64,000 bases of DNA from the NCBI RefSeq assembly GCF_024502345.1, contig NZ_JALDNN010000001.1; one strand, written 5' to 3'. The notes under the pieces were generated by a model. That model was not told where the DNA came from and did not search any database. It saw only the letters and a program-made list of their open reading frames with translations. Origin of the DNA: Escherichia coli (GTDB lineage Bacteria > Pseudomonadota > Gammaproteobacteria > Enterobacterales > Enterobacteriaceae). Of this stretch, positions 19,291 through 22,409 are shown in pieces. The translations under genes were made by a program, and so were the position numbers. Position 1 is the stretch's first letter; each line of letters begins with the position of its first letter.

Positions 19291-21269
<1,979 letters not shown>

Positions 21270-21271
<2 letters not shown>

Positions 21272-22409
21272 GTCAGAGCCCCTCGATCTCAATCAGTTAG
21301 CGCAAAAAATTAAACAGTGGGGGCTGGAACTGGGCTTTCAGCAGGTAGGTATTACCGATACCGATCTCAGCGAGTCCGAGCCCAAACTGCAAGCATGGCT
21401 GGACAAACAATACCACGGCGAAATGGACTGGATGGCACGTCACGGTATGCTGCGCGCTCGCCCTCATGAGTTATTGCCCGGTACGCTGCGCGTGATCAGC
21501 GTGCGGATGAATTACCTTCCTGCTAACGCCGCATTTGCCAGCACGCTGAAAAACCCCAAACTCGGCTATGTTAGCCGTTATGCGCTGGGCCGTGACTATC
21601 ACAAACTTCTGCGCAACCGACTCAAAAAGCTGGGCGAGATGATTCAGCAACATTGTGTTTCGCTGAATTTTAGACCGTTTGTCGATTCTGCGCCTATTCT
21701 CGAGCGCCCGTTAGCTGAAAAAGCTGGGCTCGGCTGGACAGGTAAGCACTCACTTATCCTCAATCGCGAGGCCGGTTCGTTCTTCTTTTTAGGCGAATTG
21801 CTGGTCGATATTCCGCTGCCCGTGGCTCAACCAGTCGAGGAAGGATGCGGCAAATGCGTGGCCTGTATGACGATTTGCCCGACCGGTGCCATCGTCGAGC
21901 CATATACCGTCGATGCTCGCCGCTGTATCTCTTATCTCACCATCGAACTGGAAGGGGCGATCCCGGAAGAGTTGCGACCGTTAATGGGAAACCGTATTTA
22001 CGGTTGCGATGACTGCCAGCTTATCTGCCCGTGGAATCGCTATTCACAACTCACTACAGAAGACGATTTCAGCCCGCGTAAGCCGCTACACGCACCGGAA
22101 CTCATTGAGTTATTCGCCTGGAGCGAAGAGAAGTTTTTAAAAGTCACGGAAGGTTCGGCGATTCGCCGTATAGGTCACCTGCGCTGGCTGCGTAATATCG
22201 CCGTGGCATTAGGCAATGCGCCCTGGGATGAAACGATTCTGGCGGCGCTGGAGAGTCGCAAAGGTGAGCACCCACTTCTTGATGAGCACATAGCGTGGGC
22301 GATGGCGCAGCAAATCGAGAGGCGAAATGCGTGCATAGTCGAAGTGCAATTGCCGAAAAAACAGCGTCTGGTTCGGGTAATTGAAAAAGGGTTACCGCGT
22401 GACGCCTGA
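21270..22409 (+). CDS. queG: Epoxyqueuosine reductase QueG
   Basis: ORF 21162..22409; start at [18 protein letters not shown] (379 aa); Cys-rich 4Fe-4S motifs (CGKCVACMTICP, CDDCQLICP). Confidence 0.85.

What the first reader, a model, noticed from the sequence alone, without database searches (positions are those of the whole stretch)
21256..21275. Divergent nnr and queG start codons overlap, leaving no intergenic space
The nnr ATG (minus strand, 21269-21271) and the queG ATG (plus strand, 21270-21272) share two base pairs. Both promoters must therefore lie inside the other gene's coding sequence, implying possible transcriptional interference between a metabolite-repair gene and a tRNA-modification gene. 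The alternative is that the true nnr start is the downstream Met (MKKNPVS, 21256).
Basis: seen in the sequence. Interest (0 to 1): 0.25.

Follow-up and report, generated by a model that had tools for sequence, protein, structure and literature searches.

The report
Head-to-head overlapping nnr and queG starts
Two E. coli genes that point away from each other really do begin on the same four bases (CATG), so each gene's promoter sits inside the other gene; this is rare and strongly conserved, but it is already in the reference annotation and in published transcript maps.

Summary
Window 21269-21272 reads CATG: nnr ATG on the minus strand (21271..21269) and queG ATG on the plus strand (21270-21272).

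- **Already annotated.** The window is E. coli, and RefSeq and K-12 MG1655 carry the same 2-bp overlap.
- **Conserved.** The junction is in 5425 of 5426 complete E. coli genomes. All 34 aligned Enterobacterales sequences keep the CATG geometry (about 13 genera, Nnr identity down to ~60%).
- **Start codon.** Codon 1 is ATG in 34/34, behind a fixed GAGGGG-type Shine-Dalgarno. The alternative Met6 (21256) is ATG in only 9/34 and not start-capable in 16/34. The upstream ATG is the ancestral start, though no direct start-site data were found for E. coli.
- **Promoters inside the partner gene.** This inference is supported and already documented. Published maps (Conway 2014, Lybecker 2014, Huang 2020) show a 413-nt sense/antisense overlap that yields RNase III-cut dsRNA. 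Mapped here, the queG start is ~21246 and the nnr-operon start ~21659.
- **Invariant codons.** Both starts lie next to -10 elements written in invariant, partly rare codons of the partner gene.

Whether the overlap has any regulatory effect is untested. It is rare but known, so interest is low.

The parts
21269..21271 (-). nnr (yjeF) start codon ATG, codon 1 (MTDHTM...)
   Evidence: Read directly from the sequence. Annotated start in RefSeq and K-12. ATG in 34/34 Enterobacterales sequences.
21270..21272 (+). queG (yjeS) start codon ATG; shares 21270-21271 with the nnr ATG (CATG)
   Evidence: The B. subtilis QueG structure aligns from E. coli residue 6, so no longer or shorter N-terminus is needed.
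19724..21271 (-). nnr CDS, 515 aa, bifunctional NAD(P)HX epimerase/dehydratase; first gene of the nnr-tsaE-amiB-mutL... operon
21270..22409 (+). queG CDS, 379 aa, epoxyqueuosine reductase
21254..21256 (-).
   Evidence: Present in E. coli. Codon 6 is ATG 9, TTG 6, GTG 3 and non-start 16 of 34. Weak SD, -3.2 kcal/mol.
21279..21284 (-). nnr Shine-Dalgarno GAGGGG, 7 nt before the ATG; on the plus strand it is queG codons 4-5 (CCC CTC, Pro-Leu)
   Evidence: Duplex with the anti-SD is -7.2 kcal/mol. A GAGGGG/GAGAGG-type motif is at fixed spacing in 31/34 sequences. queG codons 5, 6 and 8 have zero synonymous variation.
21230..21238 (+). Inferred queG promoter, extended -10 TGgTATACT; on the minus strand it is nnr codons 12-14 (AGT ATA CCA, Ser-Ile-Pro)
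   Evidence: The codons are invariant wherever that residue is kept (AGT 31/31, ATA 20/20 and a rare codon, CCA 30/30). TGnTAWAMT sits at -37 or -38 from the queG ATG in 35 of 39 Enterobacterales loci (-40 to -64 in the other four), including loci where nnr no longer overlaps or is absent. The published transcript end is 8 nt downstream.
21246..21246 (+). queG transcript 5' end (U00096.2 4392114), giving a 24-nt leader that lies inside nnr codons 1-9
   Evidence: It is the end of Conway's divergent operon overlap as listed in Huang 2020 Table S1. The coordinate mapping was checked with two listed small-RNA sequences. Assigning this end to the queG promoter is my inference from the label 'Divergent'.
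21667..21672 (-). Inferred -10 hexamer TAAAAT of the nnr-operon promoter, inside queG codons 133-135 (AAT TTT AGA)
   Evidence: GGTCTAAAATTCAGCG is invariant in 20 Enterobacteriaceae loci. queG codons 131-135 form a run of five invariant codons, including the rare AGA. The published promoter position is 8 nt downstream.
21659..21659 (-). nnr-operon transcript 5' end (Conway promoter, U00096.2 4391701), giving a 388-nt leader antisense to queG codons 1-130
   Evidence: Huang 2020 Table S1: 'P 4391701 ... T 4408049, + strand, Divergent, overlap 413'.
21246..21659 (.). Region transcribed on both strands (413-nt overlap); source of RNase III-cut dsRNA
   Evidence: p19 cluster S-361 maps to window 21251-21606. 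Lybecker MS-212 maps to window 21260-21643.

Best explanation
This is a genuine, ancient head-to-head overlap of two real start codons in E. coli and other Enterobacterales. nnr starts at the ATG at 21271..21269 and queG at the ATG at 21270-21272.

Because there is no intergenic DNA, every expression signal is written inside the partner's coding sequence:
- The nnr ribosome-binding site (GAGGGG) is queG codons 4-5.
- The queG promoter is an extended -10, TGgTATACT, that doubles as nnr codons 12-14. Its transcript starts near 21246.
- The first promoter of the nnr-tsaE-amiB-mutL-miaA-hfq... operon is a TAAAAT -10 inside queG codons 133-135. Its transcript starts near 21659.

The two promoters therefore face each other across about 413 bp. 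Their transcripts are complementary over that stretch, pair into dsRNA and are cut by RNase III.

Shown: the sequence geometry, its conservation, the published transcript ends and the dsRNA. Inferred: the exact promoter hexamers, use of Met1 in E. coli itself, and any mutual dampening of expression through polymerase collision or dsRNA decay.
For: Geometry and annotation.

Start codon: ATG 34/34 at codon 1, with a conserved SD at fixed spacing. SD energies are -7.2 (Met1), -3.2 (Met6) and +1.3 (upstream TTG) kcal/mol.

Nucleotide-level constraint:
- Only 8/375 nnr codons are invariant across 34 sequences, and five of these lie in codons 2-14 (ACG, AAC, AGT, ATA, CCA).
- Only 5/330 queG codons are invariant, and three of these are codons 5, 6 and 8.

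queG promoter: TGnTAWAMT at -37 or -38 in 35 of 39 Enterobacterales loci. It is retained in Pectobacterium and Brenneria, where nnr has moved 145 bp to 1.1 kb away and only a decayed relic of its old start remains. It is also retained in Photorhabdus and Xenorhabdus, which have no nnr neighbour.

nnr promoter: invariant in 20 Enterobacteriaceae loci, using the rare AGA codon.

Transcripts: Conway's 413-nt divergent overlap, Lybecker's dsRNA MS-212 and p19 cluster S-361, a top-20 coding-gene cluster at 5,635 RPM. yjeF-yjeE-amiB-mutL are co-transcribed in vitro, about 2-fold better by E-sigma70 than by E-sigmaS.
Against: - I found no direct start-site evidence for E. coli Nnr (no ribosome-profiling or N-terminal peptide data).
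- Codon 6 is start-capable (ATG, GTG or TTG) in 17 of the 20 Enterobacteriaceae sequences analysed (L021 left out), so a second, shorter isoform cannot be excluded.
- One MAG (L021) has Met1 out of frame and Met6 in frame. This may be an assembly error.
- A simple sigma-70 consensus scan found no promoter in 20800-21800, because neither candidate has a good -35.
- The transcript ends come from RNA-seq operon calls relayed through a second paper's supplement, not from primary-5'-end mapping that I could read. No Thomason or Dornenburg antisense TSS is listed for this cluster.
- No data show that either gene's expression depends on the other promoter.
Confidence: 0.8

Rival explanations
1. In E. 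coli, Nnr is actually translated from Met6 (ATG at 21256..21254). The start codons then do not overlap and a 13-bp gap separates the genes.
For: An in-frame ATG exists. Codon 6 is start-capable in 18/34 sequences. MAG L021 keeps only the Met6-equivalent in frame. The first ~18 residues lie outside the fold shared with TM0922, so they are dispensable for the fold.
Against: Codon 6 is not a start codon in 16/34 sequences. In those species the next Met is about residue 42, inside the conserved domain, so Met1 must be used there. Met1 and its SD are invariant, including in E. coli. The Met6 SD is weak at -3.2 kcal/mol. The NTG pattern at codon 6 fits conservative Met/Leu/Val exchange rather than selection for a start.
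Confidence: 0.08
2. Both Met1 and Met6 are used in Escherichia and Citrobacter, giving two Nnr isoforms that differ by five residues.
For: Two in-frame ATGs lie 15 nt apart, each with some SD complementarity. Nothing in the data excludes it.
Against: Met6 is restricted to a few genera. The five residues have no known role, and no experimental support was found.
Confidence: 0.1
3. The overlap and the 413-nt antisense pairing are a tolerated by-product of genome compaction and have no regulatory consequence. Conservation reflects only the difficulty of changing doubly constrained bases.
For: There is no synonymous constraint along most of the 388-nt nnr leader (queG codons 11-130 have ordinary third-position entropy). 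The distal nnr promoter is present only in Enterobacteriaceae. Pectobacterium and Brenneria separated the genes without losing either. Divergent 5' overlaps are the commonest class among the top-20 coding-gene dsRNA clusters in E. coli (13 of 20).
Against: Very tight nnr/queG head-to-head spacing, from -2 to about +100 bp, recurs across Gammaproteobacteria. The queG -10 lies inside nnr codons even in outgroups. The dsRNA is abundant.
Confidence: 0.5

Closest known systems
Divergent 5'-overlapping transcript pairs of E. coli that give RNase III-processed dsRNA (e.g. rsd/nudC, asd/yhgN; Huang et al. 2020, Lybecker et al. 2014, Conway et al. 2014)
   Same: yjeS/yjeF is itself listed in these catalogues as a '5' overlap, Divergent' pair with a 413-nt overlap.
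   Different: In most listed pairs an intergenic region exists and only the untranslated leaders, or part of the coding sequences, overlap. Here the coding sequences themselves abut and overlap by 2 bp, so all signals are intragenic.
Excludon (Listeria; long 5' leader of one operon antisense to a divergent neighbour, giving opposite expression)
   Same: Divergent operons, with a long (388-nt) leader of one operon fully antisense to the 5' third of the neighbouring gene. Huang et al. draw the same analogy for rsd/nudC.
   Different: Reciprocal or mutually exclusive expression is the defining functional feature and has not been shown here. The two functions are not obviously opposed. My knowledge of the Listeria cases is from memory, not from a paper read here.
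Convergent (face-to-face) promoter interference, e.g. coliphage 186 pR/pL
   Same: The two promoters fire toward each other across a shared transcribed stretch.
   Different: The spacing is about 413 bp between two chromosomal housekeeping promoters. Relative strengths are unknown and interference has not been measured. The comparison is from my own knowledge.
Short co-directional overlaps (ATGA/TGATG) that give translational coupling
   Same: Start and stop signals share bases, and the arrangement is strongly conserved.
   Different: Those are on one strand and couple translation on one mRNA. The CATG overlap is on opposite strands, so no ribosome can pass from one gene to the other. It is also far rarer: 2 divergent against 586 co-oriented overlaps in E. 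coli.

Membership tests
Divergent (head-to-head) overlapping gene pair | Two adjacent genes on opposite strands whose 5' coding ends share bases | tested here: met
   CATG at 21269-21272, annotated the same way in RefSeq and K-12.
Divergent (head-to-head) overlapping gene pair | Both annotated starts are the real starts | tested here: inconclusive
   Comparative evidence strongly favours both: codon 1 is ATG in 34/34 with a conserved SD, and the QueG N-terminus matches the solved homologue. No direct E. coli start-site data were found.
5'-overlapping divergent transcripts forming RNase III-processed dsRNA | Transcripts from both strands overlap at their 5' ends | tested here: met
   Published overlap at U00096.2 4391701-4392114 (window 21246-21659).
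5'-overlapping divergent transcripts forming RNase III-processed dsRNA | dsRNA or ~21-nt RNase III products detected from the overlap | tested here: met
   p19 clusters E-284 and S-361 and Lybecker MS-212, taken from the literature rather than from my own data.
Excludon | Long leader of one operon antisense to the divergent neighbour | tested here: met
   The 388-nt nnr leader covers queG codons 1-130.
Excludon | Expression of one side represses the other (reciprocal expression) | not testable with these tools
   Needs promoter mutants or expression data. None were found.
Extended -10 sigma-70 promoter (queG) | TGn immediately upstream of a TATAAT-like hexamer, about 7 nt before the transcript start, with a weak -35 tolerated | tested here: met
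   TGgTATACT at 21230-21238 with the transcript end at 21246. Conserved at -37 or -38 in 35 of 39 Enterobacterales loci. The -35 is poor. Promoter activity itself was not assayed.
Convergent-promoter transcriptional interference | Activity of one promoter reduced in cis by the opposing promoter | not testable with these tools
   Only the geometry is established.

The most novel reading that the evidence does not exclude
The nnr/queG head-to-head junction may be a conserved reciprocal control module rather than a passive overlap. The queG promoter is written in the N-terminal codons of Nnr. In Enterobacteriaceae the first promoter of the nnr-tsaE-amiB-mutL-miaA-hfq superoperon is written in queG codons 131-135. 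Polymerase collision and RNase III cleavage of the obligatory 413-bp duplex would then make queuosine maturation (QueG) and the superoperon (t6A, i6A, Hfq) anticorrelated. The conserved Ser-Ile/Leu-Pro motif of the Nnr N-terminal tail would exist because it spells a -10 element on the other strand.
Probability: 0.15. Interest if true: 0.5.

Novelty: already known. Interest (0 to 1): 0.2.

Why it matters
This is a clean natural example of DNA that carries two layers of information. Protein codons of one gene also serve as the promoter or ribosome-binding site of the gene on the other strand. That dual use freezes synonymous sites and forces rare codons (ATA, AGA).

For annotation, the result confirms that the 515-aa Nnr start is the ancestral one and should not be trimmed to Met6.

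For physiology, the first promoter of the operon that carries tsaE, amiB, mutL, miaA and hfq faces the queG promoter. Any engineering of queG, such as deletions or codon recoding, can therefore disturb that operon, and the reverse also holds. None of this changes current understanding of either enzyme.

Tried and rejected
- **Promoter and terminator consensus scan of 20800-21800.** Nothing found. Both candidate promoters lack a -35, so the scan was uninformative rather than negative.
- **Sigma-S promoter for nnr.** I considered this because of the C at -13 in TCTAAAAT. It is rejected: yjeF-yjeE-amiB-mutL are in the E-sigma70-preferred table of Maciag et al. 2011.
- **Structured or conserved RNA in the 388-nt nnr leader.** There is no Rfam hit in the region. 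There is no excess synonymous conservation in queG codons 11-130.
- **Upstream TTG at 21292 as the nnr start** (the longest ORF). It has no SD (+1.3 kcal/mol). The frame contains stop codons at varying places in relatives.
- **Small ORFs in the nnr leader** (21653..21471 and 21467..21297, minus strand). The first ATG is not conserved, so I treat them as chance antisense ORFs.
- **Direct start-site or N-terminal peptide evidence.** There were no entries for yjeF/nnr in the held supplements of the TetRP, TRAINSPOTTER and Salmonella riboproteogenomics papers. The Ribo-RET and REPARATION supplements are not held.
- **Primary TSS tables.** The Conway supplements are not held. The Thomason 2015 paper is not held. 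The Cappable-seq tables are truncated before 4.39 Mb.
- **PDB.** No E. coli Nnr structure exists that could show the N-terminus.

Full report
**What is in the sequence**

The plus strand at 21254-21272 reads CAT TGT ATG GTC CGT CATG. On the minus strand this gives ATG ACG GAC CAT ACA ATG AAG... (MTDHTMKK...). ATGs lie at 21271..21269 and at 21256..21254. On the plus strand the ATG at 21270-21272 opens [12 protein letters not shown].... The two outer start codons share 21270-21271 through the palindrome CATG.

**Identity and annotation**

- The window is E. coli. An 801-bp segment is 100% identical to several strains and is found in 5425 of 5426 complete genomes.
- The gene order is mutL < amiB < tsaE < nnr | queG > followed by yjeV, three tRNA-Gly genes, orn and rsgA.
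- RefSeq annotates the same 2-bp overlap in three strains.
- K-12 MG1655 has queG at 4392928..4394067 (-) and nnr at 4394066..4395613 (+).
- Nnr matches the T. maritima bifunctional Nnr structure from residue 61. No E. coli structure exists.
- QueG matches the B. subtilis QueG structure from residue 6. That fits a start at 21270.

**Which nnr start is real**

A scan of one genome per species with QueG returned 80 loci.

- tblastn with Nnr places residue 1 exactly one base past the queG ATG in 33 of the 37 Enterobacterales loci L004-L040. The genera include Escherichia, Citrobacter, Enterobacter, Kluyvera, Cedecea, Pluralibacter, Mangrovibacter, Pantoea, Serratia, Yersinia, Rahnella, Hafnia, Budvicia, Acerihabitans and Edwardsiella. 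Nnr identity falls to about 60%.
- In 34 aligned sequences codon 1 is ATG in all 34.
- A GAGGGG/GAGAGG-type Shine-Dalgarno sits at fixed spacing in 31 of them.
- Codon 6 is ATG in 9, TTG in 6, GTG in 3 and a non-start codon in 16.
- Where codon 6 cannot start translation, the next Met is about residue 42, inside the conserved domain. Met1 is then the only workable start.
- Predicted pairing with the 16S 3' end is -7.2 kcal/mol for Met1, -3.2 for Met6 and +1.3 for the upstream TTG at 21292.

I conclude that Met1 is the ancestral and most likely start. Two caveats apply. I found no direct start-site or N-terminal peptide data for E. coli. One MAG (L021) has Met1 out of frame and the Met6 equivalent in frame, which may be an assembly error.

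**Promoters and transcripts**

Huang et al. 2020 (PMC7373196) list yjeS/yjeF among the top 20 protein-coding loci for p19-captured RNase III dsRNA. The entry is cluster S-361, U00096.2 4,391,754-4,392,109, 5,635 RPM, type 5' overlap. Their Table S1 adds two more records:

- Lybecker's dsRNA MS-212, 'Divergent', at 4391717-4392100.
- Conway's overlapping operons at 4391701-4392114, overlap length 413. The + strand operon runs from promoter 4391701 to terminator 4408049.

Two small-RNA sequences in the same supplement fix the nnr ATG at U00096.2 4392089. They are AUUGAGAUCGAGGGGCUCUGA and CAUGACGGACCAUACAAUGAAG. The mapping is therefore window = 21271 + 4392089 - x. It gives:

- An nnr-operon 5' end at window 21659, with a 388-nt leader antisense to queG codons 1-130.
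- A queG 5' end at window 21246, with a 24-nt leader inside nnr codons 1-9. Assigning this second end to the queG promoter is my inference from the 'Divergent' label.

[quoted passage not shown] In vitro, yjeF-yjeE-amiB-mutL are transcribed together, about 2-fold better by E-sigma70 than by E-sigmaS.

**Sequence support for the two promoters**

*queG promoter.*
- Eight bases upstream of 21246 lies TGgTATACT (21230-21238), an extended -10.
- On the other strand this is nnr codons 12-14, AGT ATA CCA. These codons show no synonymous variation: AGT 31/31, ATA 20/20 although it is a rare codon, and CCA 30/30.
- Across 34 sequences only 8 of 375 eligible nnr codons are invariant, and five of them lie in codons 2-14.
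- The element TGnTAWAMT sits at -37 or -38 from the queG ATG in 35 of 39 Enterobacterales loci, and at -40 to -64 in the other four.
- It persists where nnr no longer overlaps. In Pectobacterium and Brenneria, nnr now starts 145 bp to 1.1 kb away. Only a decayed relic of its old start remains (MMGHRNKQ...*, MANR*), yet TGGTAACAT or TGGTAAAAT is kept at -37/-38.
- Photorhabdus and Xenorhabdus have no nnr neighbour and still carry TGCTAYACT or TGTTAAACT.
- This separates the promoter constraint from the protein constraint.

*nnr-operon promoter.*
- TAAAAT (21672..21667, minus strand) ends 8 bases before 21659.
- GGTCTAAAATTCAGCG is invariant in 20 Enterobacteriaceae loci.
- queG codons 131-135 (TCG CTG AAT TTT AGA, with the rare AGA) form a run of five invariant codons. 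The background rate of invariant codons is 24/350.
- Outside Enterobacteriaceae the Arg codon is CGN and the hexamer becomes GAAAAT. This distal promoter therefore looks like an Enterobacteriaceae feature.

*Translation signals.*
- The nnr Shine-Dalgarno is queG codons 4-5.
- queG codons 5, 6 and 8 are among only 5 invariant codons of 330.

**Wider distribution**

In Alteromonadales, Aeromonadales, Vibrionales and relatives, nnr and queG are again head to head wherever they are neighbours. Likely start-to-start gaps range from -2 to about +100 bp. The -2 cases (Tolumonas L081 and a MAG, L076) again show CATG. A TGnTAAAYT element often lies inside the nnr codons for Ser-Leu/Ile-Pro. Start choices in these outgroups are my best guesses from ORF candidates.

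**Rarity**

A survey of the E. coli reference counted 663 overlapping adjacent gene pairs. Of these, 586 were co-oriented, 75 convergent and only 2 divergent (PMC4161906). The paper does not name the two pairs.

**Mechanism and limits**

Shown:
- The overlap and its conservation.
- Nucleotide-level constraint at the junction and at both -10 elements.
- Published overlapping transcripts and published dsRNA.

Inferred:
- The promoter hexamers.
- Met1 use in E. coli.
- Any effect of the facing promoters or of RNase III cleavage on expression.

Most of the nnr leader shows ordinary synonymous variation and has no Rfam match. I therefore see no evidence for a structured regulatory leader. A passive, tolerated overlap is at least as likely as an excludon-like switch.

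**Verdict**

The Met6 alternative is not supported. The feature is rare and neatly conserved, but it is already present in the reference annotation and in published transcript and dsRNA catalogues. I rate it already known and of low interest.

Noticed in passing
L030 2355-2520, L034 2354-2520, L037 1340-2520: In Pectobacterium and Brenneria, nnr has been separated from queG by 145 bp (L030, L034) or by about 1.1 kb of inserted coding DNA (L037). A decayed relic of the old nnr start (MMGHRNKQ...*, MANR*) stays fused to the queG ATG and keeps the TGGTAA(C/A)AT -10. The displaced nnr has its own MTDH.../MADQ... N-terminus. This looks like a duplication or insertion that resolved the overlap.
   Followed up: partly
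window 20165-20200 and 20063-20107 (minus strand; nnr codons 358-369 and 389-403): These are clusters of codons with no synonymous variation among Enterobacteriaceae (for example GAT..CGT CAC AAT; the 10-codon entropy for codons 361-370 is 0.60). They may mark internal promoters for tsaE/amiB, since Conway reports 8 promoters in this operon.
   Followed up: no
window 19724-19752: nnr and tsaE overlap co-directionally by 29 bp. nnr codons 491-510 also show reduced synonymous variation, which probably reflects the tsaE translation signals.
   Followed up: no
window 21260-21313 (+): An out-of-frame ATG lies 10 nt upstream of the queG ATG. It is the complement of the nnr His4 CAT and opens a 17-codon ORF ([17 protein letters not shown]) across the queG start. 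The ATG is present in most Enterobacteriaceae, but it has no usable SD within the 24-nt leader.
   Followed up: partly
window 22392-22445 (-): The annotated 17-aa ORF yjeV (b4670; WP_010723271.1) overlaps the 3' end of queG convergently by 18 bp.
   Followed up: no
L021 2455-2502: In the MAG CTSoil_132, a 1-nt indel puts the conserved ATG ACG GAC CAT out of frame with the rest of nnr, and only the Met6-equivalent ATG is in frame. This is either an assembly error or a natural case of the shorter start.
   Followed up: partly
window 37925-37971 (-): Guanidine-II (mini-ykkC) riboswitch match, 49.3 bits against a gathering score of 32.
   Followed up: no
window 21471-21653 and 21297-21467 (-): Two ORFs of 60 and 56 aa lie within the 388-nt nnr leader, antisense to queG. 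The first starts 6 nt after the mapped transcript start, but its ATG is not conserved (GTG or CTG in relatives). They are probably chance ORFs.
   Followed up: partly
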